Of a stretch of DNA of 64,000 bases, positions 2,680 through 28,328 are shown one piece after another (the first letter of the stretch is position 1; every line of letters starts with the position of its first letter). The notes under the pieces are model-generated. The model worked only from the letters and a program-made list of their open reading frames with translations. It ran no database searches and was not told the origin of the DNA. The position numbers were made by a program, and so were the translations under genes. Source of the DNA: Nitrospirota bacterium. GTDB taxonomy: Bacteria > Nitrospirota > UBA9217. Location of the stretch: NCBI GenBank assembly GCA_963751455.1, contig CAVVUN010000015.1:96001-160000 (forward strand), in the 5' to 3' direction.

Positions 2680-4045
2680 ACACATTCATTTCGTCGGTAT
2701 CGGCGGCATCGGCATGAGCGGCATCGCCGAGGTGCTGCTGAATCTGGGATATAAAGTTTCCGGGTCGGACATGAGGGAGTCGGAGATTACCGAGCGGCTC
2801 AAAAAGCTGGGTGCTGATATTTTCATCGGCCACCGGGCAGAGAACATCGCTGAACCGCATGTCGTTGTGATCTCGTCGGCGGTGAAGGCTGACAATCTCG
2901 AAGTTATTGCTGCGCGGGAAAAGCAGATTCCGGTCATCCCGCGCGCCGAGATGCTCGCAGAGCTGATGCGGCTCAAATACGGCGTGGCGATCGCGGGCGC
3001 CCACGGGAAAACAACGACGACATCGATGGTCGCGACGGTCCTTGCGGCCGGCGGCATCGACCCAACCGTGGTTATCGGCGGAAAGCTGAACAGCATCGGC
3101 ACGAACGCAAAGCTTGGGCAGGGCGAGTTCCTGGTGGCGGAGGCGGACGAGAGCGACGGGAGTTTTCTGAAGCTTTCGCCTACAATAGCGGTAGTAACGA
3201 CGATCGACGCCGAGCATCTGGATTATTACAAGGACATTGACGAGATCAAGAGCGCGTTTCTGGCTTTTATAAATAAGGTGCCTTTCTACGGCGTTTCTGT
3301 GCTGTGCCTGGACCAGCCCCATATTCAATCGCTCATTCCTTCGCTGCAGAAGCGGTACCAGACATACGGCATGACCTCGCAGGCCGATTACCAGGCAAAA
3401 GAAGTTTCCCTGAAGCCGCTCGGCTCCCGGTTCAAAGTGATTCATCACGACCAGGATCTCGGGTGGTTCGAGCTCTCGGTGCCCGGTGTTCATAATATCA
3501 ATAACAGTCTGGCGGCAATAGCGGTGGCACGGGAACTGGATATGGATGTCGAGGTTATCAGGAAAGCCATCAAGGAGTTCAGCGGGGTGCAGCGGCGTTT
3601 CCAGATCAAGGGAGAGGCAAAGGGGATCATCGTGGTGGACGATTACGGGCATCATCCCACGGAGGTGAAGGCGACGCTTGCCGCAGCGGCATCGGGCCTC
3701 GAACGCCGGGTAGTGGTTGTGTTCCAGCCTCACCGGTACACCAGGACACAGCATCTTCTTGAGGAATTCTTTACCGCCTTTAATCAGGCGGACAAGCTTA
3801 TCATGATGGACATCTACGCCGCAGGAGAAAAACCGATACCGGGCGTCTCCGGAGAGGCGCTGTACGAGGGAATAAAAAAACACGGACATCGGGACGTGAC
3901 CTACATTGCAGACAAGGAAAAGATCGCAGACCACATGGCTGAGGTTCTCAGGCGCGGCGATTTGATGATCACGCTGGGAGCGGGCGACGTTTGGAAAATC
4001 GGCGAGCAGGTACTGGAAAGGCTGAATTCGCAGCAGAAAGCGTAG
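2663..4045 (+). CDS. murC: UDP-N-acetylmuramate--L-alanine ligase
   Basis: [45 protein letters not shown]; overlaps the end of murG. Confidence 0.97.
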
Positions 4046-15928: not shown

Positions 15929-15937
15929 AGCCTCTTT

Positions 15938-16038
15938 TCTCGCAAAGGCGCAATGGTCGCAAAGAAAAGCAAAAGAAATGGATCTTTATAAAATATCTTT
16001 AAAAGTCTTTCTTGACGTTCTTTGCGAGCTTTGCGAGA
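15938..16038. repeat. 9-nt-period inverted repeat hairpin
   Basis: tctcgcaaaggcgcaatggtcgcaaag ... ctttgcgagctttgcgaga. Confidence 0.85.
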
Positions 16039-16049
16039 GATGAATTTTT

Positions 16050-16763
16050 ATGTCGATAGCGGACAACCTCAAGACGGTAACAGACAGGATCGCATCGGCA
16101 GCCAGGCGCTCAGGCCGGGACCCCTCGTCCGTGAAGCTGGTTGTGGTTACCAAGACTGTTGATGTTGACAGGATCCGCGAGGCAGTAGCAGCAGGTGGCA
16201 TGCTCCTGGGTGAAAACCGTGTCCAGGAAGCAAAGGACAAGATCGAAAAACTCGGACGGCTTGCCTCCTGGCACCTGATCGGGCATCTCCAGACGAACAA
16301 GGCAAAGTATGCGGTAAAGCTCTTTGACGTGATTCATTCCGTTGACAATATCGGCCTGGCTAAGGAAATAGACGTGCAAGCGGCCAGGATAAACAAGGTC
16401 CAGGATGTCCTGATCGAGATAAGCATTGCCGGAGAGGCGAGTAAGGCGGGGGTGGCGGCAGACCAGGCGCTGTACCTGGTGGCAGAAGCCGCAAAACTGA
16501 AGCACATTTCTATCAAGGGCTTAATGACCATGCCGCCCTTTTCGGACAACCCGGAAAACTCGCGTCCGTATTTCAGGAAATTGAAAGAATTGACAAGGCA
16601 GATCGGGAAAGAGAATCTCCCGGGTGTTTCCATGGATGAGCTTTCAATGGGAATGAGCGGCGATTTCGAGGTCGCCATAGAAGAAGGGGCGACCTTGGTG
16701 CGCGTGGGTACGGCGATATTTGGGGAGAGGTCAGGACATATGCAAAGTGAAAATTGCATCTAA
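16050..16763 (+). CDS. yggS: PLP homeostasis protein YggS
   Basis: VVVTK, GENRVQE, WHLIGHLQTNK, LSMGMSGDF, VRVGTAIFG. Confidence 0.95.
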   Translation: MSIADNLKTVTDRIASAARRSGRDPSSVKLVVVTKTVDVDRIREAVAAGGMLLGENRVQEAKDKIEKLGRLASWHLIGHLQTNKAKYAVKLFDVIHSVDNIGLAKEIDVQAARINKVQDVLIEISIAGEASKAGVAADQALYLVAEAAKLKHISIKGLMTMPPFSDNPENSRPYFRKLKELTRQIGKENLPGVSMDELSMGMSGDFEVAIEEGATLVRVGTAIFGERSGHMQSENCI

Positions 16764-16907
16764 AACCGTCTCTGTCTCACACAAAGACACTAAGGCACGA
16801 AGGGATGCCAGAAACAAATTATTTTCTTTGTGTCTTCGTGGCTCCGTGTGAATACCATATTTTGATTCATCTTTTCAATTTGCACTTTGCGATCTGCTAT
16901 TTGCAAT
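16740..16907. repeat. Nested repeats: heptamer hairpin enclosing a 9-nt-period hairpin (16777-16851)
   Basis: Outer atgcaaagtgaaaattgca / ttttcaatttgcactttgcgatctgctatttgcaat; inner left arm differs from 15032-15065 at one base. Confidence 0.8.
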
Positions 16908-16931
16908 AAAAATGATCTCCGTGGAGGACCT

Positions 16932-17744
16932 ATGTCGTTAGATAAAAAGATCGCATTCCTTGGCGGCGGCAACATGGCGGAAGCCTTGCTTAAAGGCCTG
17001 ATCGCCGCGGGTACGGCCAAACCTGATCAGGTTCTCGTGTCCGATATCTTTCCCGACCGGCTGGAGCATCTGCGGAAGACGTATGGTATTATAATACAAC
17101 GGAACAATATTGATGCTGCCCGCGAGGCCGGGATAGTGCTTCTGAGCGTTAAGCCCCAGGTCATCGAAAAAGTGATGACCGAGATAGCGCCGGCAATGGA
17201 CGATACAAAGCTCGTGATCTCGATTGCCGCCGGAGTAACGATCGGCCGGATGGAAAAGGCGCTTGGGGAGAAAACGCGCGTAGTCCGCGTTATGCCGAAC
17301 ACTCCGGCGCTCGTAATGGCAGGAGCAGCGGGTATCGCAGCGGGAAAGAACGCAAACTCTGACGATATCTCCCTGGTCCAGCTGATATTCAGCTCGGTCG
17401 GGCGGTCCGTGGTCGTAGACGAAAAGCTGATGGATGCGGTTACCGGGCTTTCAGGCAGCGGGCCTGCCTACGTATTTATGATCATTGATGCGCTTTCGGA
17501 TGCCGGGGTAAAGGAAGGGCTCCCTCGCGCCCTGGCTTTAGAACTTGCCGCGCAGACTGTATACGGTTCCGCGAAGATGGTGCTCGAGACGAAAGAGCAT
17601 CCCGGAAAACTGAGGGACATGGTTACCTCACCCGGCGGAACGACCATTGAAGGTTTGCATGCGCTCGAAAAAGGGAAACTGCGCGCCACGCTTATGAACG
17701 CAGTTGAGGCGGCTACGGCAAGGAGCAAGGAACTGGGAAAGTAA
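16932..17744 (+). CDS. proC: Pyrroline-5-carboxylate reductase
   Basis: FLGGGNMA, VKPQ, RVMPNTP, LSGSGPAY, VTSPGGTT; GGAGG RBS before ATG 16932. Confidence 0.96.
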   Translation: MSLDKKIAFLGGGNMAEALLKGLIAAGTAKPDQVLVSDIFPDRLEHLRKTYGIIIQRNNIDAAREAGIVLLSVKPQVIEKVMTEIAPAMDDTKLVISIAAGVTIGRMEKALGEKTRVVRVMPNTPALVMAGAAGIAAGKNANSDDISLVQLIFSSVGRSVVVDEKLMDAVTGLSGSGPAYVFMIIDALSDAGVKEGLPRALALELAAQTVYGSAKMVLETKEHPGKLRDMVTSPGGTTIEGLHALEKGKLRATLMNAVEAATARSKELGK

Positions 17745-17803
17745 GAAACCGACAGACAAGCGACGTGAAGCGACGGAACCGACGTGTAACAGAGAGGCGA
17801 GCA

Positions 17804-18178
17804 TTGGGGAACATTCAGAGCCATAAAGATCTGCACGTATGGCAGGATGCAATGGATGGAGCCATGGAGATTTATGCCATTACCAAAGCATTTCCCCCTG
17901 ACGAGAAGTATTCTCTTGTGGACCAAATCCGGAGATCGTCTCGGTCGGTTGCTGCGAATCTTGCCGAAGCGTGGAGAAAGCGAAGATATGAGGCAGCATT
18001 TAAGAGCAAGTTGAATGATGCAGAAGCAGAAGCGTCCGAAACGCAAACATGGATAGAAGTAGCGCTTCGGTGTTCTTATATTGACAAGCAAACTGCAGAT
18101 AAACTGGATCAGAAATACGAGCATATTCTGACGAGGTTAGTTTCCATGAGTCGGGATGTCGGGAATTGGACGCTGTAA
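17804..18178 (+). CDS. Four-helix-bundle protein (23S rRNA-IVP/TIGR02436-like)
   Basis: DLHVWQ, FPPDEKYSLVDQIRRSSRSVAANLAEAW, EASETQTW; TTG start inferred from AGAGG upstream. Confidence 0.9.
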   Translation: MGNIQSHKDLHVWQDAMDGAMEIYAITKAFPPDEKYSLVDQIRRSSRSVAANLAEAWRKRRYEAAFKSKLNDAEAEASETQTWIEVALRCSYIDKQTADKLDQKYEHILTRLVSMSRDVGNWTL

Positions 18179-18310
18179 TGAAAATCGACAAGTATCGAGT
18201 TGAAGCGACGAAGATTCGACGTAAAGGCGACTGGCTCGCGGCATGTCGTTGTCAGGTCGGTGCAAGTCATCTCTAGTCGATTTTACGTCGGCTTTACAAA
18301 GGGAGGATCA

Positions 18311-18610
18311 ATGTTTGTCTTCGGAAATATAATTTTGGGAATTGCAAAGGTTCTTGATGTTGCATTGAACATCTATCTTTGGGTCATTATTATTCGGGCC
18401 CTTATCTCATGGGTGAATCCTGATCAATTTAATCCCATCGTGCAGTTTCTTCAGCGGTCAACTGAACCGGTGCTTCGTCCGATCAGAAAGCTTGCGCCGC
18501 CTTATAAGGTCGGAATAGATCTATCACCGCTGATCGCGATTCTTATCATTTACTTTTTACAATATGCAGTCGTGAACACACTGTATCGTATTGGCCGCTC
18601 GATGGGGTAG
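18311..18610 (+). CDS. yggT: YggT family membrane protein
   Basis: IIIRALISWV.PD..NPIVQFL...TEPVLRPIR, IDLSPL; GGGAGG RBS. Confidence 0.92.
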   Translation: MFVFGNIILGIAKVLDVALNIYLWVIIIRALISWVNPDQFNPIVQFLQRSTEPVLRPIRKLAPPYKVGIDLSPLIAILIIYFLQYAVVNTLYRIGRSMG

Positions 18611-18620
18611 GCCAGGCATA

Positions 18621-18801
18621 ATGGCCGCAAAGGGGCACAAAAAACGCCAGAAAAAGACGAACGGTAGTTGGACGCAGATAAAGGCGGAAAAGGCGGATCA
18701 AACGGATTATTGATGAAACAAGTATCCACCTGATTTTTCATAAGGAAAGTTTGATTTGTTATCTGTTTCTATCCGATGTTAACAGATTCTTCCGCGTCCA
18801 A
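18621..18801. repeat. Two adjacent short-period repeat elements (GC(A/G)GAT-type hairpin at 18668-18801)
   Basis: ttggacgcagataaaggcggaaaaggcggatc ... atctgtttctatccgatg...ttccgcgtccaa; also atggccgcaaaggggcacaaaaaacgcc, resembling 45843-45876. Confidence 0.7.
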
Positions 18802-18860
18802 ATGCTCTCGATAGGTTTTTTGAGGCTCAAAATAATTGGTTTTTTGCGGGAGGCATAAAT

Positions 18861-19340
18861 ATGAACATTACTCCGCTCGATATACAGCAGAAGCGGTTTC
18901 ATATGGGCTTTCGAGGTTACGAACGAAGCGAGGTGGATTCCTTTCTCGATATGGTACGCGAGGAAATGGAGGCTCTGCTTCGCGAAGTCACGGAGCTGCG
19001 CGAGTTCCAGCAGACCTATGAAACACGAATGCAAGAGCTGAACCAGCGGGAAGAGACGGTCAAGAACACAATGATCATGACTCAAAAGCTTGCGGAAGAC
19101 CTCAAGGAAAACGCTCGCAAGGAAGCGGCTCTGATCGTAAAAGATTCGGAACTCCGCAGCCAGCACATAACAGGCAACGCGCAGCAGGAGAAGGTGAAGC
19201 TGGAGTTCGAGATACAGGAGCTGAAGCGGCGGAAGCATCATTTTCTGCAGGACATCAAAAAAGTCATCGAGATGCACCTTGAGATGACGAAGTTTGAGGA
19301 AGGCGGCGATGAGACCCGCGAAGAAACCGCCAAGGGGTAA
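18861..19340 (+). CDS. divIVA: DivIVA domain protein
   Basis: ITPLDIQQKRF..GFRGY...EVDSFL followed by coiled coil. Confidence 0.9.
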   Translation: MNITPLDIQQKRFHMGFRGYERSEVDSFLDMVREEMEALLREVTELREFQQTYETRMQELNQREETVKNTMIMTQKLAEDLKENARKEAALIVKDSELRSQHITGNAQQEKVKLEFEIQELKRRKHHFLQDIKKVIEMHLEMTKFEEGGDETREETAKG

Positions 19341-21917: not shown

Positions 21918-24900
21918 TCAATGGTGATCAGATTGATCCACTGCTAAAGAGACAGAAGCTGTGCCATGTAATAATGCAGAATAAGTAACAACACCTGATA
22001 ATGGCATGCTTCCTATAAACCAGGGCCATTTTGACCAACCGTCGGTCAATCCCACCCACCATCTCCCATTTATATTGTGATTCCATATATCATGTAAAAC
22101 AGCTAGGGCATTTTGACCAGGAATGAAATTCGCAAGAAAACTAACAGGACCTCCTTCTTTTAAAGGCCACAGATAAAAAGGTACTCCACTTCCTCTATTT
22201 GAAAATCCCCAATTCATCATTGTGGTCCAGGTTACTGCCTCATCGTTCAGTTTAGGAGAAGCCCCGAGACCTGGAAGTGGATTTGGACCCTGCCCATTGC
22301 AATCATTACAGCCTGGCACATCAGTTAATGAGTTCTGATAAATCAATTCAGCGCCACTACTCAGGGCAGACATATAGAAACCATTCCAGAATTTGCCGCC
22401 CTGCGCGTGAGCAGATGCGCCACCAACAAGACCTGACGCAGCAACCTGTCCTGTATAACCTGCAATACTGTCAGTTTCCCAGTCCATGATATATGAACTT
22501 GCCATAGATGTTCCCCATGAAATTGCTGCAGATTTCAGCATATCATTGAAATGTCCTCCATAAGCGTATGCTTCATACGCACCAATTACTGCTGAACCAG
22601 CGCCATAGTACTCATCTCCTATATAACTAGCAGCTATATGTATCGCAGCATTATAATATCGATTATTGAAGTACTTCGCGTGTTTATTCTGCCTCCTATG
22701 CCCGGTTGGATCCGCATAGTTGACTGGATTGTTCCCCACATAAGAGTATCTGTTAAGTGATTGCGGATTAGTGAAATTAGGTACAATTGTATCCGCGGTG
22801 ATAAATCTACCGAGAACAGGATTATAGTACCGCGCATTGTAGTAGTACAACCCTGTATCTGCATCGAGTTCTTGTGACGTGTACTTGTGCGCCATTGATA
22901 CCGATCCAGTGTCCATACTGGTTGCCCCGAATGGCATGTATTGTATTTCTTCCATTTTATTGCCATTTCCGTTGGTTATCACCCTGTTGCTTCCCAGATG
23001 GTCTTGGTGGTAGTACATGACCTCAGAGCTCACCTTGTTAGCTACAAGGACTCCTCCTGCAAAAATATATTTCGAGCAAATGCCTGCTTTGCACTCGTAG
23101 TGCTTGCCGATATAAATATTTGTCCCGGTTGGTGCGGCCTTTTTTACTCGCTGGCCGTTGTAGTCGTATGTAAAGTTAATTGTCTTTCCATAGGCAGTGA
23201 CGCTCTTAGGCATGTTGTCTTCGTTATATACAATCATGCGGGTGCCGTCCGTGAGCATGTTGCCGTTGGGGTCGTAGTTGTAGGTCTTGCCATCGGGAAG
23301 TGTGGTTCTTACCGCATGAGGCTTGAGGCCGGTCTGGTCGTAGGTGTACGTTAGGCCCTCTTTTGAAGTGATGTTTCCGATTTGATCGTAATCATACGAC
23401 AGCGTTCCGTAGCTCGTGCTCTGGGCCTGCCACAAACGGTTCAGCTCGTCATACAGGAAAGCCTGAGAGCGACTTGAATCTATCGCATCAGTCATGGTTG
23501 AGATGTTGCCTAAATTGTCATATACATACGTCAGGTTCAAAAGCTGAGGCTCCGATGGCTTTCCAACCTGGATTGATTTAAGTCGATTGTTTCCGGGATA
23601 GTACTCAAAGGTTGTGTTAACGCCGTTGCCATAACTTAATATTCGTGCCTGTCCGAGGGGGTTATACTCATAATATTGCGCATAGGGAGTAGCATTGCTA
23701 CCTGTCACCACAGAAAGGACTTCCGCATCGTAAATATACGAAACAATCTCCTGATCTGGATATTTTATACTTGTTACTCTGTCAAGGCTATCGTAGCCGT
23801 ACTCCGTGGTATAGTTCACAGCAGTAATCGTCTTGACGGTCTTTTTTGGCCTTCCTTTAATGTCATAATGGTACACTATCTGGCCGGAACCGTCCGTAAC
23901 CTTTGAAAGCCTGCCCTTGCTGTAAGTGGACGTCGGCAGATCATAGTAATATGTGACCGGGACTGGGGCGAGCTTGTTCGTCACTCTGTTCAGCTTGTCG
24001 TAAATGAAACTGATAGTCTGCCCCTTGGCGTCTTTTTGGGATATTACATTGCCGTTAGCGTCATATTGATAGGTCCAGTTGCCGGCCTCGCCGTCATCCG
24101 TCGCGCTGCTCATGTCGGGATCATGCATAAAGGTTTTCCTGCTGAGTGTGTCATAGCGCATTCGGGTCTCATTCCCTGCGGCATCGGTCACCTTCAAAAG
24201 GTTTCCGAGCACATCGTACTGATAAGTAGTCGTGGCATAAGGGCTCTCTATGCCTGTTGTGCAGTCGTTGAAAGTGCCTAAATATTCTTCGACCTTGGCT
24301 AACCGACCGAGGGTGTCCCTAGTTTCCCGCCTTCGGTGACCGTTTGCATCGATAGATACAGTTACACCGTCATTATAGCAGCCAAGGGTCACCGTTCCAT
24401 CCGGCTCGCTGACCCGAACATTACGGCCAAGGGCATCATAAGTGAATGTTTTCCAGCTAACAATATCGTCGATTCCCTCGAAATAGGGCAGAGAAGTTTG
24501 CAAAACAGTTCCCGTGGCATTATATTTCGTCACGGATCTAATAGTTTTTGTATCAGGACCGGTCTTTTCCACTGCGGCTGTTCTACCCATGCCGTCGAAG
24601 TATGACCAGGAAAAGAGCCCGGTTGATGTGTCTATCCTGACATGCTGCTCCCCGACAATGCCAAAATCAATATACGACCGGTTGATCCATCCTCCATCCG
24701 GCGTTGTGGTTTTTGTTGGACGTCCGAATACATCGTATTGTGACGTGGTCACAGCGCCGTTCGGATCGGTAATTTTCCTTACTTGCCCGTAAAGGCCGTT
24801 ATCCGAAGCAACCCCGTCTATGCCATAGTACTGGGTCAGGGTAGTATGCCCGAGCGGATTTTTCGCAGTCGTGGAAAATGTGTACGAATTGTCGTACATA

Positions 24901-27900
24901 AAGGTTGAAATATTTCCCTTCGGGTCCCGTGTGCAGGCGAGATTTCCGTAGGCGTCGTACGCCATGCGCACTGCCGGGTTCGTTCCTCCATCGAGCCAGC
25001 GTACAATACGAGTGAGATTGCCTTTCGTGGGCGGCTGGTTTTCGGGAGTCATTGCAGCAAACGTGCAGTCCACAGGCTCGTCATAATAGAATGTAGTTTC
25101 AGCCGTTTTGATGGTAGCGGTCGTTCCGCTATATATGGTCTCACTCGCAGGCAGGCTAAGAATCCATTTATCTGTATTCGGGAAATAGGTCCTTTCAACT
25201 CTACGGTCGTCAGTTGCATCGGTCACATCACCATAATGCTCTTCGCGCGTCACGTTGCCGTATGCATCGTAGGCGTAAATGCTCTTTGTCTCTCTGGTAC
25301 AAGCGTCGCCGTCGCAAAGATATGAATGGACCTCCTCCGGCGGATTGAAATAGGGCGTTCCGCTGCCGGCACTATATAGCGTTGTTGTTTTAGAATATTC
25401 CCGGCCTTGTGCATCGGTCAGGCGAGAATAGTAAGGCTTGCCTTTCATATAACCGTCATTGCCGGAAGGGTTGTCTACATAAAGCGATGGGTTTGCTATA
25501 TCGACTGTACCGGTTACATTGCCGCGGTGGAACCATGTCTCTGTTACGAGTTGCTCGCCGTCCGGCCCGGCTGGCCCGGTGACCGTCACGTGATTAAAGC
25601 CACGGAATTCACGTTCGCCGATATGATAGTACCCGCCGGAATAATTATACAGAGTGGTCGATTCTATCCCCATACATAGAGACGTTGTAGAATCATAATT
25701 TTCGCAGTTTTTAATGACGCTGAGCGTCTGTATGGGAAAGGGGAGCTGTGTGTTATTATATTGTGAAGAAGGCTTATATGTTATATTTGTATTCCCACCT
25801 ATACCGTTCAGAATATCTGAGACCATATTTACTGCATTACCTGACCCTACAGCTACAGATAGACTCGTATCTATGTTTATATGACCGACGTCGATTTTAC
25901 CGTCGCCGTTAAAATCTCCAAAATTGTACCTGCTTGCATCACCCCACCCCATGCTCCCCCACGGATAGCGGGCAGTAAATCGAGAACCCTTGGAAAAAAT
26001 AACCGATAACGTGCCGTCATTGATGTTAATGTTGAGCACATCACTCCTGCCATCTCCGTTGAAATCCCCCAATTTTATACGCCATGGGTCACCCCATCCA
26101 ACACCACCCCACTCAGCCGCCGGCTCAAACCCCGTTCCGTTCGATACGGCCACCAACAACGATCCGTTCACCTCGTCGATGTTAATAAATAGCACGTCCG
26201 TTTTGCCATCGCCATTAAAATCGCCCAACATGTGCCGTTCCGGATCGCCCCAGCCAGCATGTCCCCATGGTTGAGACGTTGATGAAGTTGTGAAACCGGT
26301 ACCCGTGGACAGAGCTACTGTCAAGGGACCATTCATTGACGGCTCGTCCAGATTTATGAAGAGCACATCTGTCTTACCATCCCCGTTGAAATCGCCCAGC
26401 ATGTGCCGTTCCGGATCGCCCCAGCCAGCATGCCCCCATGGTTGAGGTGTTGATGAAGTGGTAAAACTGGTCCCTGTCGACAGAGCCACTGTTAACGTGC
26501 CATCCATATTGATGAAGAGCACATCGGTCTTCCCGTCTCCGTTAAAGTCGCCCAGCATATGCCGTATCGGATCGCCCCAGCCGGCATGCCCCCACGGTTG
26601 AGATGTTGACGAAGTGGTAAAATTAGCGCCTGTGGAAAGAGCCACTGTTAAGGGACCATTCATTGACGGCTCATCCAGATTTATAAAGAGCACATCAGTT
26701 TTCCCGTCCCCGTCAAAGTCGCCCAGCATATGCCGTATCGGATCGCCCCAGCCGGCATGCCCCCACGGTTGAGATGTTGACGAAGTGGTAAAATTAGCGC
26801 CTGTGGAAAGAGCCACGGTTAAGGGACCATTCATTGACGGCTCATCCAGATTTATAAAGAGCACATCAGTTTTCCCGTCCCCGTCAAAGTCGCCCAGCAT
26901 ATGCCGTATCGGATCGCCCCAGCCTATTTCTCCCCAAGAGGTGGCCGGATCGAAGGAAGTATTTTCATCTGAATATTTTATGTTGATGGCGGGTAGAGCA
27001 CTGCCTTCGGTAATAGTCCCATTATCAAGAGAGGCATCTTTCCCATATTGCTGCACGGCTGACAGGATAGAGCGTTCGGTCGATGTACTAGGGGAATACG
27101 CTAATTTATACGCCCGGACGCGATTGCCACTGGCAATAACATCTATTGTTTTCAACCTGAAGGCAGTTCTTACCCGAAAATTAACGGTGTACATATCCGG
27201 AGCGTCGGTACGGGATTCAAGATGGAATTTGACGTAATTCGTAGTCGGTGTTCCATCCGTATTGGCTGTATAAGATATTTGATTAAGATAAATTTGTCCT
27301 TCATAAGCATGGCCCTGTACTTCCTTTGCATATGAGAACGTCATATAGTTGCCGTTTGTGTCTTCGACCGTATCCAAGCACCATTTGAAGACTCTGTTCC
27401 CGTTCGAAGGGTCATCTTGTTTAGGCGTAGCAGTTCCATACGCAGTTTTTCCAAAAGTAAACTTTGTTCCTTTTTTATCAAATACCTCCCAGTAATTCGG
27501 GCTGCCGTCTAGATTGACAATTTTCATTACTTTAAAAAAGACCCCCTCTATTTTTGCCCGATATTCGTTTTCGTTTACATTTACCAAATCCATGGTCGCG
27601 CCGGCGACGTTCAAGATATATCCATCAGTTTCGGTGTAAGACAAGCCATGTTTAGCGCTTCGCTCAATGGACCCTACTTCAAGTTCCCATCCGAACCCAA
27701 CCCAACTGTCTCCATTATTGCTTCTATATGTCAATGCAAGACCCGGATCCATGCCTTTTCGGCCGAAGGGCACCTCAATCGGGATCGAGTAAGACATGGT
27801 TCCGGTCGAAAGATCGGGCATAACTGTTCCACTGCCCGCGCCTCCGCTTAATCCAACTTTATATTTTGGTGCAGACTGGCTGCTGCCCGTATCATTGGCA

Positions 27901-27995
27901 AAAGCAGGTCTAAATAAGACTGCGATCAGAGAACACAAGCAGATTGAAAGAAAGACTTTAATCCAATCATTTACGTGAAAGAAAATGCGCCACAT
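21918..27995 (-). CDS. SpvB/TcdB-like, FG-GAP and YD/RHS-repeat protein with RHS core and about 260-aa C-terminal tip
   Basis: GGGGAGG RBS before ATG 27995; signal-peptide-like N-terminus; LALTY...GWEL, GDFNGDGKTD repeats, REFRGF, YD repeats, GLYYYNARYY, NPVNYADPTG. Confidence 0.92.
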   Translation of the reverse strand: MWRIFFHVNDWIKVFLSICLCSLIAVLFRPAFANDTGSSQSAPKYKVGLSGGAGSGTVMPDLSTGTMSYSIPIEVPFGRKGMDPGLALTYRSNNGDSWVGFGWELEVGSIERSAKHGLSYTETDGYILNVAGATMDLVNVNENEYRAKIEGVFFKVMKIVNLDGSPNYWEVFDKKGTKFTFGKTAYGTATPKQDDPSNGNRVFKWCLDTVEDTNGNYMTFSYAKEVQGHAYEGQIYLNQISYTANTDGTPTTNYVKFHLESRTDAPDMYTVNFRVRTAFRLKTIDVIASGNRVRAYKLAYSPSTSTERSILSAVQQYGKDASLDNGTITEGSALPAINIKYSDENTSFDPATSWGEIGWGDPIRHMLGDFDGDGKTDVLFINLDEPSMNGPLTVALSTGANFTTSSTSQPWGHAGWGDPIRHMLGDFDGDGKTDVLFINLDEPSMNGPLTVALSTGANFTTSSTSQPWGHAGWGDPIRHMLGDFNGDGKTDVLFINMDGTLTVALSTGTSFTTSSTPQPWGHAGWGDPERHMLGDFNGDGKTDVLFINLDEPSMNGPLTVALSTGTGFTTSSTSQPWGHAGWGDPERHMLGDFNGDGKTDVLFINIDEVNGSLLVAVSNGTGFEPAAEWGGVGWGDPWRIKLGDFNGDGRSDVLNININDGTLSVIFSKGSRFTARYPWGSMGWGDASRYNFGDFNGDGKIDVGHINIDTSLSVAVGSGNAVNMVSDILNGIGGNTNITYKPSSQYNNTQLPFPIQTLSVIKNCENYDSTTSLCMGIESTTLYNYSGGYYHIGEREFRGFNHVTVTGPAGPDGEQLVTETWFHRGNVTGTVDIANPSLYVDNPSGNDGYMKGKPYYSRLTDAQGREYSKTTTLYSAGSGTPYFNPPEEVHSYLCDGDACTRETKSIYAYDAYGNVTREEHYGDVTDATDDRRVERTYFPNTDKWILSLPASETIYSGTTATIKTAETTFYYDEPVDCTFAAMTPENQPPTKGNLTRIVRWLDGGTNPAVRMAYDAYGNLACTRDPKGNISTFMYDNSYTFSTTAKNPLGHTTLTQYYGIDGVASDNGLYGQVRKITDPNGAVTTSQYDVFGRPTKTTTPDGGWINRSYIDFGIVGEQHVRIDTSTGLFSWSYFDGMGRTAAVEKTGPDTKTIRSVTKYNATGTVLQTSLPYFEGIDDIVSWKTFTYDALGRNVRVSEPDGTVTLGCYNDGVTVSIDANGHRRRETRDTLGRLAKVEEYLGTFNDCTTGIESPYATTTYQYDVLGNLLKVTDAAGNETRMRYDTLSRKTFMHDPDMSSATDDGEAGNWTYQYDANGNVISQKDAKGQTISFIYDKLNRVTNKLAPVPVTYYYDLPTSTYSKGRLSKVTDGSGQIVYHYDIKGRPKKTVKTITAVNYTTEYGYDSLDRVTSIKYPDQEIVSYIYDAEVLSVVTGSNATPYAQYYEYNPLGQARILSYGNGVNTTFEYYPGNNRLKSIQVGKPSEPQLLNLTYVYDNLGNISTMTDAIDSSRSQAFLYDELNRLWQAQSTSYGTLSYDYDQIGNITSKEGLTYTYDQTGLKPHAVRTTLPDGKTYNYDPNGNMLTDGTRMIVYNEDNMPKSVTAYGKTINFTYDYNGQRVKKAAPTGTNIYIGKHYECKAGICSKYIFAGGVLVANKVSSEVMYYHQDHLGSNRVITNGNGNKMEEIQYMPFGATSMDTGSVSMAHKYTSQELDADTGLYYYNARYYNPVLGRFITADTIVPNFTNPQSLNRYSYVGNNPVNYADPTGHRRQNKHAKYFNNRYYNAAIHIAASYIGDEYYGAGSAVIGAYEAYAYGGHFNDMLKSAAISWGTSMASSYIMDWETDSIAGYTGQVAASGLVGGASAHAQGGKFWNGFYMSALSSGAELIYQNSLTDVPGCNDCNGQGPNPLPGLGASPKLNDEAVTWTTMMNWGFSNRGSGVPFYLWPLKEGGPVSFLANFIPGQNALAVLHDIWNHNINGRWWVGLTDGWSKWPWFIGSMPLSGVVTYSALLHGTASVSLAVDQSDHH
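26544..26923 (-). repeat. Near-perfect 171-nt (57-aa) tandem duplication within FG-GAP repeats
   Basis: 26550-26720 and 26721-26891 differ at one base; a third partial copy starts at 26892. Confidence 0.9.
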
Positions 27996-28328
27996 ATTAG
28001 TCCTCCCCAAAAATATAAAGTTGTAAACAAAAGCGAAAATATCGGCGAAAGATAGGAATGGTACCAAGATTGAAAACTTCTAAACTCGGCTAGCTGTTTT
28101 ACCTTGATATGGCAAGAAAGAGATACAAGATACTTTAGTTCGAAAAAAGATAACAAAATAAAAAATGCGTGTCAATGAATATTTATGCATAAATTAATAA
28201 TTGAGTGCAACTATGCGCAACTTACTGCGATTCGTTTATGAATTTTTCGGCTTGACTATATTATTAGTATGTAATACTATTTTCGTAGAAAAAATTCTAA
28301 CGCGCTTCACTGATGCAGGAGGTGCACT

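What the first reader, a model, noticed from the sequence alone, without database searches (positions are those of the whole stretch)
17745..18295. Four-helix-bundle gene embedded inside a repeat hairpin: candidate filled form of the element
Seen: the gene interrupts the usual proC-yggT adjacency. Upstream are CGAC units of about 10 nt (aaccgacag, aagcgacgtg, aagcgacgg, aaccgacgtg). The same units continue after the stop (aatcgac, tatcgag, aagcgac, attcgac, aggcgac) and then invert (gtcgtt, gtcggt, gtcgat, gtcggc). Removing the gene leaves a hairpin like the empty ones elsewhere. Known: this family includes 23S rRNA intervening-sequence proteins and is structurally related to the nucleic-acid-binding Avd of diversity-generating retroelements; its function is unresolved. 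Inference: gene plus arms form a cassette, and the protein may bind or help mobilise the hairpins.
Basis: partly seen in the sequence, partly recalled or inferred. Interest (0 to 1): 0.8.

Follow-up and report, generated by a model that had tools for sequence, protein, structure and literature searches.

The report
Repeat-armed gene swapped between bacterial genomes
A small gene of unknown function sits between mirror-image runs of a short DNA word inside a housekeeping operon, relatives carry the same spot filled, broken, empty or holding a different hairpin, and the package was likely swapped between distant hosts at this exact spot, probably by recombination through its repeat arms.

Summary
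Confirmed and extended. A PF05635/TIGR02436 four-helix-bundle gene (17804-18178) fills the proC-yggT junction between arrays of CGAC units, direct and then inverted. Such arms flank 60 of 104 homologue loci, against 4 of 121 control ORFs. The repeat word follows the protein clade across phyla.

Of 55 family genomes, this junction holds the gene in 4 (one a pseudogene). One holds a relic, one decayed arms and one the predicted empty CGAC hairpin; others carry hairpins of other words. The window's gene is far closer to alleles from distant hosts than the flanking genes are (22/99 against 114/199 synonymous differences). That points to horizontal exchange at the same junction, though the tree-topology test was not significant. 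A cyanobacterial homologue is inverted between its arms.

No transposase, reverse transcriptase or target duplication is attached. It resembles the ORF-bearing 23S rRNA intervening sequence but lies in an mRNA operon. Most likely the arms are recombination handles and the protein binds its own word; neither is shown. This scan has noted this cassette type before on other DNA (315 notes); I found no paper describing it.

The parts
16932..17744 (+). proC, host gene; the cassette begins directly after its stop codon
   Evidence: TIGR00112 310 bits; sequence
17745..17791 (+). 5' arm: four purine-rich CGAC units, 9-11 nt apart
   Evidence: identity to the allele in L293 rises sharply here while proC differs at about 29%
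17792..17803 (+). Shine-Dalgarno-like GAGAGG and 6-nt spacer before the likely TTG start; no sigma-70-like promoter match in the arm
   Evidence: sequence; promoter scan; start inferred from homologues that begin with Met at this position
17804..18178 (+). four-helix-bundle gene (PF05635/TIGR02436, S23p family), 124 aa, intact; invariant basic residues R44, R47, R58, K59, R60, K69
   Evidence: model pLDDT 96.3 with four helices; TM 0.84 to 2GSC, 0.78 to 2RLD, 0.77 to Avd 4DWL; dN 0.05 against dS 0.87 versus G074
18179..18232 (+). 3' spacer, direct block: four CGAC units and one CGAG unit; can pair with the inverted block as a local hairpin
18245..18297 (+). 3' spacer, inverted block: four GTCG units; predicted to pair with the 5' arm (about 21 expected base pairs) or with the direct block (about 15)
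18300..18610 (+). yggT ribosome-binding site and yggT (ORF 18311-18610), host; not co-transferred with the cassette
   Evidence: PF02325 85 bits; a run-X2 contig differs at 11 of the 14 third positions of codons 2-15 while its cassette gene differs at 17 of 375 nt

Best explanation
This is a roughly 550-base hitch-hiking cassette, a four-helix-bundle gene between inverted arrays of a short word, that fills the gap between a host stop codon and the next ribosome-binding site, is repeatedly lost from this junction and was likely exchanged between distant hosts at it, probably by recombination through its arms, with the protein predicted to bind the arm word. SHOWN: the architecture, which is the rule for the family; patchy occupancy of this junction with intact, pseudogene, relic and empty CGAC alleles; purifying selection on the protein; loss of exactly one repeat unit in one allele; inversion of a homologous cassette between its arms; no transposase, RT or target duplication at the site. 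INFERRED FROM DIVERGENCE: recent exchange of the cassette, without its flanking genes, between the window's lineage and a distant host clade. INFERRED, UNTESTED: (i) incoming DNA recombines through short arm words or a resident copy, so empty hairpins are both scars and landing pads; (ii) the cassette is transcribed from the host operon, and its arms fold so that the insert costs little, as in rRNA intervening sequences, perhaps cut by RNase III; (iii) the protein, likely a pentamer like its solved relatives, binds or anneals the repeated word through its invariant basic patch and so favours its own spread. I put 0.85 on 'gene plus arms is an exchangeable cassette' and 0.45 on the whole mechanism.
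For: Arms: 60/104 homologue loci against 4/121 control ORFs in the same loci and 5/1026 in this genome; direct orientation only 9/104. Within the family, 81/115 loci have at least 3+3 copies and 47/115 at least 4+4. Word follows protein: a clade with SH-aLRT 97 spans Nitrospirota, Omnitrophota and Myxococcota, most rows with GACGA arms and one subclade with GAAGG arms; a GGTGA group spans three phyla; one genome carries different words for different clades (quick tree, 98 rows; flanks). Allele series at the junction. Exchange: synonymous third-position differences, cassette gene against host genes, are 22/99 against 114/199 for L293 (p 8.5e-9), 24/109 against 145/257 for L303, and 1/116 against 35/262 for G074-L289. 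In the 9 pairs other than G074-L289 that lack the window's genome, gene and host rates do not differ (p at least 0.057), so the gene is not generally constrained at these sites. One 634-nt contig of run X2 joins a 95.5%-identical gene to a different 3' arm and a diverged yggT; pieces in run X6 show the same gene allele. proC places the host clade of L293/L303/G074 apart from the window's genome at 100/100. Arms recombine: one 10-nt unit is missing in L289; the cassette aligns plus while both flanks align minus in L049/L046 against L059. What is conserved is the word, not a unique stem: own and swapped arms pair equally well (-64.2 and -63.5 kcal/mol), both better than random (-49.1). The genome has a ComEC-family gene and RNase III. 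The Coxiella IVS has tandem heptamers upstream of the same ORF family within terminal inverted repeats (PMC4990558 passages).
Against: Tree-topology tests do not prove transfer. The cassette data do not reject the host clade (p-AU 0.26), and proC rejects a G000+L293 pair only at p 0.06-0.08. The window's host genes sit on a long branch, which inflates host distances, and the first dS test was near saturation. The metagenome loci were picked by a pattern at the proC end, and the X2 evidence is one short contig. No near-identical copy at a different site was found in this family: all family pairs at 85% or more shared the flanks that could be compared (204 loci, 44 pairs), so moves to new sites are rare. 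Long-range arm pairing is predicted in 3 of 5 filled alleles, not in L303 or G014, and the focal arms are not significantly stable. One paralogue (C9:376666) has direct, not inverted, arrays within 400 nt. Word sharing between empty and filled elements within a genome was inconclusive. Word-with-clade tracking needs only co-inheritance, not binding. The protein is not basic overall (pI 6.3), unlike Avd as described in 10.1101/2023.10.23.563531 (passages). No binding, expression or recombination data exist here.
Confidence: 0.45

Rival explanations
1. The gene is an accessory gene of intermittent benefit to the host. The arms are passive, hypermutable microsatellite hairpins inherited with it, alleles are swapped by ordinary homologous recombination with a resident copy, and the protein never touches the arms.
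For: Strong purifying selection. Orthologues stay at one site across genera. The G074-L289 near-identity tract runs on into yggT, as ordinary recombination would give. Own and swapped arms pair alike. Slippage of one unit is seen.
Against: It does not explain why homologues across many phyla so often have inverted arms, why the word is kept per protein clade across hosts, or the frequent pseudogenes and relics.
Confidence: 0.22
2. The armed hairpin is a generic vehicle moved in trans by another enzyme, such as the GxxExxY PD-(D/E)XK-like proteins that sit in the same kind of arms, or a Y1/HUH transposase; the four-helix-bundle gene is cargo or a helper.
For: In this genome most of the 8 GxxExxY loci inspected show inverted arms by eye, several with the words of the commonest empty hairpins. 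There are 33 Y1-transposase matches. Many near-identical empty hairpins look recently spread, and one, with its own terminal repeats, interrupts a paralogue.
Against: No such gene is adjacent here, and none was named by Pfam among the 78 of 199 neighbour ORFs scanned. The GxxExxY words differ from CGAC. There is no target duplication at the focal site. No co-occurrence test across genomes was run.
Confidence: 0.17
3. The cassette moves through RNA: RNase III or another nuclease releases the looped RNA, and the Avd-like protein recruits a host reverse transcriptase that copies it back into a matching junction.
For: Fold shared with Avd, which binds RNA and is required by the DGR reverse transcriptase. 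IVS RNA is excised by RNase III in Coxiella. The genome has 6 RT matches and RNase III.
Against: No RT near any cassette examined. The Avd family score is 29.8 against a cut-off of 80. Long-range pairing is absent in 2 of 5 alleles. Inversion and unit loss are DNA-level events.
Confidence: 0.12
4. Chance: repeat-rich intergenic DNA happens to flank an ordinary gene.
For: The genome has at least 122 repeat hairpins; the focal arms are weak by folding energy.
Against: 60/104 against 4/121 and 5/1026; the same word at the same junction in 7 of 55 family genomes; the word tracks the protein clade.
Confidence: 0.03

Closest known systems
ORF-bearing intervening sequence (IVS) of 23S rRNA, S23p type (Coxiella burnetii, Leptospira; PMC4990558, passages read)
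   Same: Same protein family; ORF enclosed by complementary ends; tandem short repeats just upstream of the ORF with variable copy number; ORF decay; sporadic distribution with suggested horizontal transfer.
   Different: Lies in a protein-coding operon, not in rRNA; arms are degenerate 9-11-nt words, not a near-perfect 28-bp stem; RNase III excision untested; related cassettes occupy many unrelated junctions.
PF05635 / TIGR02436 four-helix-bundle proteins; structures 2GSC (Xcc0516) and 2RLD (BT_0352)
   Same: Member by score; TM 0.84 and 0.78; both entries hold five chains.
   Different: The papers seen describe no function and no flanking repeat arms outside rRNA; PMC3936711 (passage) notes such genes inside cas loci without mentioning arms there.
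Avd of diversity-generating retroelements (4DWL, 8UB7-8UBE)
   Same: Same fold (TM 0.77); Avd is a pentamer that binds RNA (10.1101/2023.10.23.563531 and PMC10053308, passages).
   Different: 12% identity; below the NF033474 cut-off; no adjacent RT or target gene; not basic overall.
MITEs and REP/RAYT elements (recalled, no paper read)
   Same: Filled and empty forms, hairpin ends, intergenic location.
   Different: No transposase in the filled form; no target duplication at the focal site; ends are arrays of a word whose sequence is poorly conserved between alleles.
Cyanobacterial short tandemly repeated repetitive (STRR) sequences (recalled; search listing only)
   Same: Cyanobacterial homologues are flanked by 7-9-nt tandem arrays in inverted orientation.
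   Different: I found no paper linking these repeats to this gene family.

Membership tests
PF05635/TIGR02436 four-helix-bundle (S23p) proteins | profile score above the curated cut-off | tested here: met
   114 against 33.8 and 106.9 against 24 bits
PF05635/TIGR02436 four-helix-bundle (S23p) proteins | four-helix-bundle fold | tested here: met
   model pLDDT 96.3, four helices; TM 0.84 to 2GSC
PF05635/TIGR02436 four-helix-bundle (S23p) proteins | homopentamer | not testable with these tools
   the complex tool takes at most 4 copies; no job was sent
23S rRNA intervening sequence (S23p type) | located within an rRNA gene | tested here: not met
   between proC and yggT; no Rfam match in 16500-19000 at E up to 1
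23S rRNA intervening sequence (S23p type) | S23p-family ORF preceded by short tandem repeats | tested here: met
   compared with PMC4990558 passages
23S rRNA intervening sequence (S23p type) | complementary termini forming a stable stem around the ORF | tested here: inconclusive
   about 21 expected base pairs between the arms, but z = -0.75 to -0.86; predicted in 3 of 5 filled alleles
23S rRNA intervening sequence (S23p type) | excision by RNase III | not testable with these tools
   an RNase III gene is present; no raw RNA reads were available
DGR accessory protein Avd | Avd family score above cut-off | tested here: not met
   NF033474 29.8 against 80; PF22296 22.5 against 40
DGR accessory protein Avd | adjacent reverse transcriptase gene | tested here: not met
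   neighbours are proC and yggT; none of the genome's 6 RT matches lies on this contig
Insertion sequence / MITE | own or adjacent transposase | tested here: not met
   none at the site; none named among 78 of 199 neighbour ORFs of homologues
Insertion sequence / MITE | target-site duplication | tested here: not met
   longest word shared by the two boundary regions is 5 nt, not in register with the ends
Insertion sequence / MITE | near-identical copies at different sites | tested here: not met
   none for this cassette in the genome; the nearest paralogue is a 77%-identical relic; none in the family at 85% or more
REP/RAYT | Y1 transposase gene flanked by the repeats | tested here: not met
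   the enclosed gene is not Y1; none of the 33 Y1 matches falls in the window
Integron gene cassette | attC site and integrase-bearing array | not tested
   no attC or IntI search was run

The most novel reading that the evidence does not exclude
These genes define a transposase-free, RT-free class of selfish cassette. A small ring-shaped protein recognises its own repeat word and drives homing of gene plus arms into matching hairpins at operon junctions, even between hosts whose flanking genes are about 30% diverged. The many short-period intergenic hairpins of these bacteria, and the ORF-bearing rRNA intervening sequences, would then be the scars and landing pads of this system.
Probability: 0.3. 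Interest if true: 0.88.

Novelty: new variant of a known kind. Interest (0 to 1): 0.62.

Why it matters
PF05635 is a common family without a known function, and how ORF-bearing rRNA intervening sequences spread is open. This locus turns the family's architecture into a testable system. One junction offers intact, broken, relic, empty and replaced alleles, plus divergence evidence for exchange of the cassette alone between distant hosts. It supplies matched reagents (protein, own word, other words, a natural empty allele) for binding and integration assays. If the arms are protein-read recombination handles, this would be a mode of gene mobility without a transposase and an origin for a large class of unexplained intergenic repeats.

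Tried and rejected
Base-by-base co-evolution of the two arms: own pairs were better than swapped in 23 of 42 nearest-homologue pairs, p = 0.55 (77 of 115 loci passed the arm filter). A unique in-register stem is not supported.

Word sharing between a genome's gene-less junction hairpin and its filled cassettes: p = 0.11 (locus permutation) and 0.049 (set permutation), n = 27, cassette sets incomplete, kin not independent. Inconclusive, although single cases match by eye (G018, G060, G062, G067). The 2x2 of repeat-bearing junction against presence of the gene family (27/31 against 8/18) is confounded by spacer length and kinship and is not used.

dS test on four MAG alleles: near saturation. 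AU tests of topology: not significant. The first cassette tree held one wrongly extracted outgroup row and was rebuilt.

Sequencing runs: no RNA holder listed, all six runs had small shares and were contigs. No joint indicating an excised or circular cassette was listed, which is no evidence either way. A joint skipping 17647-18366 in run X1 at low likeness probably comes from another organism with an empty junction and is not used.

Viral contigs: 1 locus from 10 candidate stretches, 45% identity, so no sign that phages commonly carry this subfamily. Rfam: no match. Promoter scan: nothing in the arm. The wide structural search did not run; Foldseek on the PDB was used. No complex prediction was sent.

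Literature: eight searches found no paper on repeat arms around this family outside rRNA. The library lacks most subscription papers, and no supplements were opened.

Full report
OBSERVATION. The region lies in the cluster pgeF-yggS-proC-yggT-divIVA-yggU (Pfam and NCBIfam; gene names for pgeF and yggU follow from the Pfam families and are my labels). The genome's family includes G074, whose record (L040) is titled Nitrospirota. Between the proC stop (17744) and the yggT start (18311) lies a 124-codon gene, likely starting at TTG 17804, that scores far above the cut-offs of PF05635 and TIGR02436. Four CGAC units precede it; four CGAC units, one CGAG unit and four inverted GTCG units follow it. 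The predicted fold of the transcript pairs the 5' arm with the inverted block and loops out the gene (about 21 expected base pairs). The energy is not exceptional (z -0.86; gene removed in silico z -0.75). The pattern is significant as a word pattern, not as a fold: 5 of 1026 control ORFs of the genome show four plus four inverted copies of any 4-mer.

PROTEIN. An AlphaFold2 model from 58 homologues has pLDDT 96.3 and four helices. It matches Xcc0516 (2GSC, TM 0.84), BT_0352 (2RLD, 0.78) and, at 12% identity, DGR Avd (4DWL, 0.77) (sequence search). Invariant residues include R44, R47, R58, K59, R60 and K69, but the protein is not basic overall (pI 6.3). It is below the Avd cut-offs. Against G074, dN is 0.05 and dS 0.87, so the protein is under purifying selection.

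PARALOGUES. The genome has 9 PF05635 matches at 8 places. One is a 5'-deleted relic of a close paralogue with CGAC-type arms (C3). One has CAGGGG-type inverted arms and is interrupted by a gene-less hairpin element (C2). One is cut by an insertion with transposase-like sequence (C9; family label recalled). One has direct AAACC-type arrays on both sides (C9). Three weak matches (C12 twice, C15) score under the cut-off; two of them are longer forms next to genes that look like type I restriction-modification parts (label recalled).

THE ARMS ARE THE RULE. Of 111 homologue loci, 104 had full flanks. Of these, 60 have at least four copies of a 4-mer upstream and four inverted copies downstream, against 4 of 121 control ORFs in the same loci; the direct orientation gives 9 of 104. 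The loci are not independent and include the focal one. Within the family, 81 of 115 loci with full flanks (121 fetched) reach three plus three, and 47 reach four plus four. On a quick tree of 98 proteins (11 of 95 inner branches strongly supported) the word largely follows the protein clade across phyla, while single genomes carry different words for different clades. Neighbours are varied housekeeping genes. No transposase or RT was named among the 78 of 199 neighbour ORFs scanned; one upstream neighbour (L139) looks to me like the host recombinase xerC and got no Pfam call. The upstream ORF is co-directional in 77 of 98 loci with a call (rough ORF calls).

THE JUNCTION. Of 64 family genomes, 55 had a yggT match, and all 55 loci were read. 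Four carry the gene: the window's genome, G074, G054 (3' part, contig end) and G014 (internal stop). Forty-nine are gene-less with proC adjacent, and two gave no proC. G071 has CGAC arms around a relic that keeps the end of the gene, and G073 has decayed arms. Other genomes hold hairpins of other words, some stacked. By a strict rule 9 of the 49 gene-less spacers have three plus three inverted 4-mers against 1.1 expected; by eye more carry shorter arrays. Turnover is fast. All 4 pairs with four-fold-site identity of at least 0.88 and repeat-bearing spacers differ strongly: three at about the shuffled level, and G051-G053 at 0.63 against 0.50. The two closest repeat-free pairs keep 0.93 and 0.79 identity (small n, and the measure is crude for unequal lengths). 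A metagenome scan gave 32 more loci: 5 with the gene (two the same allele as G014; in L293 the contig ends before yggT), 26 gene-less, 1 in another context.

EXCHANGE AT THE SAME JUNCTION. The window's gene is 91% and 89% identical to the alleles in L293 and L303, while proC is 71-73% identical. Synonymous third-position differences are 22/99 against 114/199 and 24/109 against 145/257. In the 9 pairs other than G074-L289 that do not involve the window's genome, gene and host rates do not differ significantly, which argues against a general nucleotide constraint on the gene. Identity to L293 jumps directly after the proC stop and includes the start of the 5' arm. Independently, one 634-nt contig of run X2 carries the gene with 17 differences in 375 nt, a different 3' arm, and a yggT that differs at 11 of the 14 third positions of codons 2-15; pieces in run X6 show the same gene allele. 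proC groups L293, L303, G074, L289 and G071 with the other g17 genomes at 100/100, apart from the window's genome. A second case, G074-L289, has 1/116 against 35/262, with a tract that runs into yggT and one 10-nt unit missing from the arm. Against this: AU tests are not significant (0.26 for the cassette tree, 0.06-0.08 for proC), the window's host genes lie on a long branch, the scan pattern biases the proC end, and the direction cannot be set.

ARMS AS RECOMBINATION SUBSTRATES. In cyanobacterial homologues L049 and L046 against L059, the cassette aligns on the plus strand and both flanks on the minus strand, so it is inverted between its arms at the same site. Among 204 loci, 44 pairs were at least 84% identical. 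Most share flanks; cyanobacterial pairs at 85-93% differ in one or both comparable flanks with arms and leader carried along, and no family pair at 85% or more does. Own arms pair no better than the nearest homologue's arms (23 of 42), and both pair far better than random arms. The conserved thing is therefore the word. No target duplication was found at the focal site.

MECHANISM. I commit to a hitch-hiking cassette whose arms are recombination handles. Incoming DNA (the genome has a ComEC-family gene) would replace or enter a resident hairpin or cassette through the repeated word. Deletion between the arms would leave the empty hairpin, and slippage would reshape the arrays. Transcription from the host operon and folding of the arms would keep the cost low. 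The protein is predicted to bind the word. Architecture, allele series, selection, unit loss and inversion are shown; exchange is inferred from divergence; binding, RNA processing and the route of DNA are untested. Rivals are a passive-arm accessory gene (0.22), a trans-acting nuclease or transposase (0.17), an RNA/RT route (0.12) and chance (0.03).

COMPARISON. It works like the ORF-bearing 23S rRNA IVS. PMC4990558 (abstract start and 12 passages seen) reports terminal inverted repeats, tandem heptamers upstream of the S23p ORF, ORF decay and RNase III excision. It is not a member, because it is not in rRNA. It is not a DGR Avd, an IS or a RAYT by the tests listed. Also seen: passages of PMC10053308, 10.1101/2023.10.23.563531 and PMC3936711; all other papers as search listings only. 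No supplements were opened, and they could bear on prior description. Eight searches found no account of the arms outside rRNA. This scan's own notes record the cassette type 315 times in at least 293 genomes; they are unchecked leads and not support. A word search of those notes for same-junction exchange with empty alleles returned nothing.

VERDICT. A real feature and a new variant of a known kind. Interest 0.62: the class appears undescribed in the papers searchable here, and this junction makes it directly testable, but the mechanism of movement is not shown.

Noticed in passing
G000 C2:422946, C2:654134, C12:21593, C2:30566, C15:1252989, C15:1702995, C15:1718983, C15:928341: GxxExxY (PF13366) genes of this genome mostly sit between inverted repeat arms as well, several with the words of the commonest gene-less hairpins (CGCAGAT, CGCGAAG, CGCAAAG types). 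A second, unrelated gene family uses the same architecture.
   Followed up: partly
window 15930-16050: Gene-less hairpin of CGCAAAG units in the spacer between the laccase-domain gene and yggS.
   Followed up: partly
window 16740-16910: Nested gene-less hairpin in the yggS-proC spacer: outer TTTGCA-type arms, inner CACAAAGAC-type arms, -45.6 kcal/mol as RNA. Three successive junctions of this operon thus carry elements with different words.
   Followed up: partly
G000 genome-wide, e.g. C2:320700-320950: A family of near-identical ~80-nt CGCAGAT hairpins (43 of the 122 hairpins found). One copy, bounded by 12-nt terminal inverted repeats and an apparent 8-nt duplication read by eye, interrupts a four-helix-bundle paralogue; the terminal motif has 94 matches in the genome. 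It looks like a recently active MITE.
   Followed up: partly
L049/L046 against L059, about 2890-3460: A homologous cassette is inverted between its arms at the same genomic site in related cyanobacteria.
   Followed up: yes
G000 C11:44722-44818: Gene-less CGAC...GTCG hairpin between convergent genes, z = -3.83.
   Followed up: yes
proC-yggT spacers of G009, G023, G048 (L014, L015, L185) and L274, L280: Stacked arrays of two or three different words, with unpaired 5' arms upstream of a complete hairpin, as if elements had arrived one after another.
   Followed up: no
G000 C15:412325 and C12:458914: Longer four-helix-bundle forms next to genes that look like type I restriction-modification parts carry a short repeat hairpin inside the start of their coding sequence.
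   Followed up: no
window 21918-28067: 2049-aa ORF whose translation looks like an RHS/YD-repeat protein with N-terminal repeats (label by eye, no family search).
   Followed up: no
L109 and L114, around 3000-3400: A cassette lies between a SIR2-like gene and an nSTAND1 NTPase gene, that is inside a probable defence operon.
   Followed up: no
G000 whole genome: 33 Y1-transposase matches and 6 reverse-transcriptase matches.
   Followed up: no
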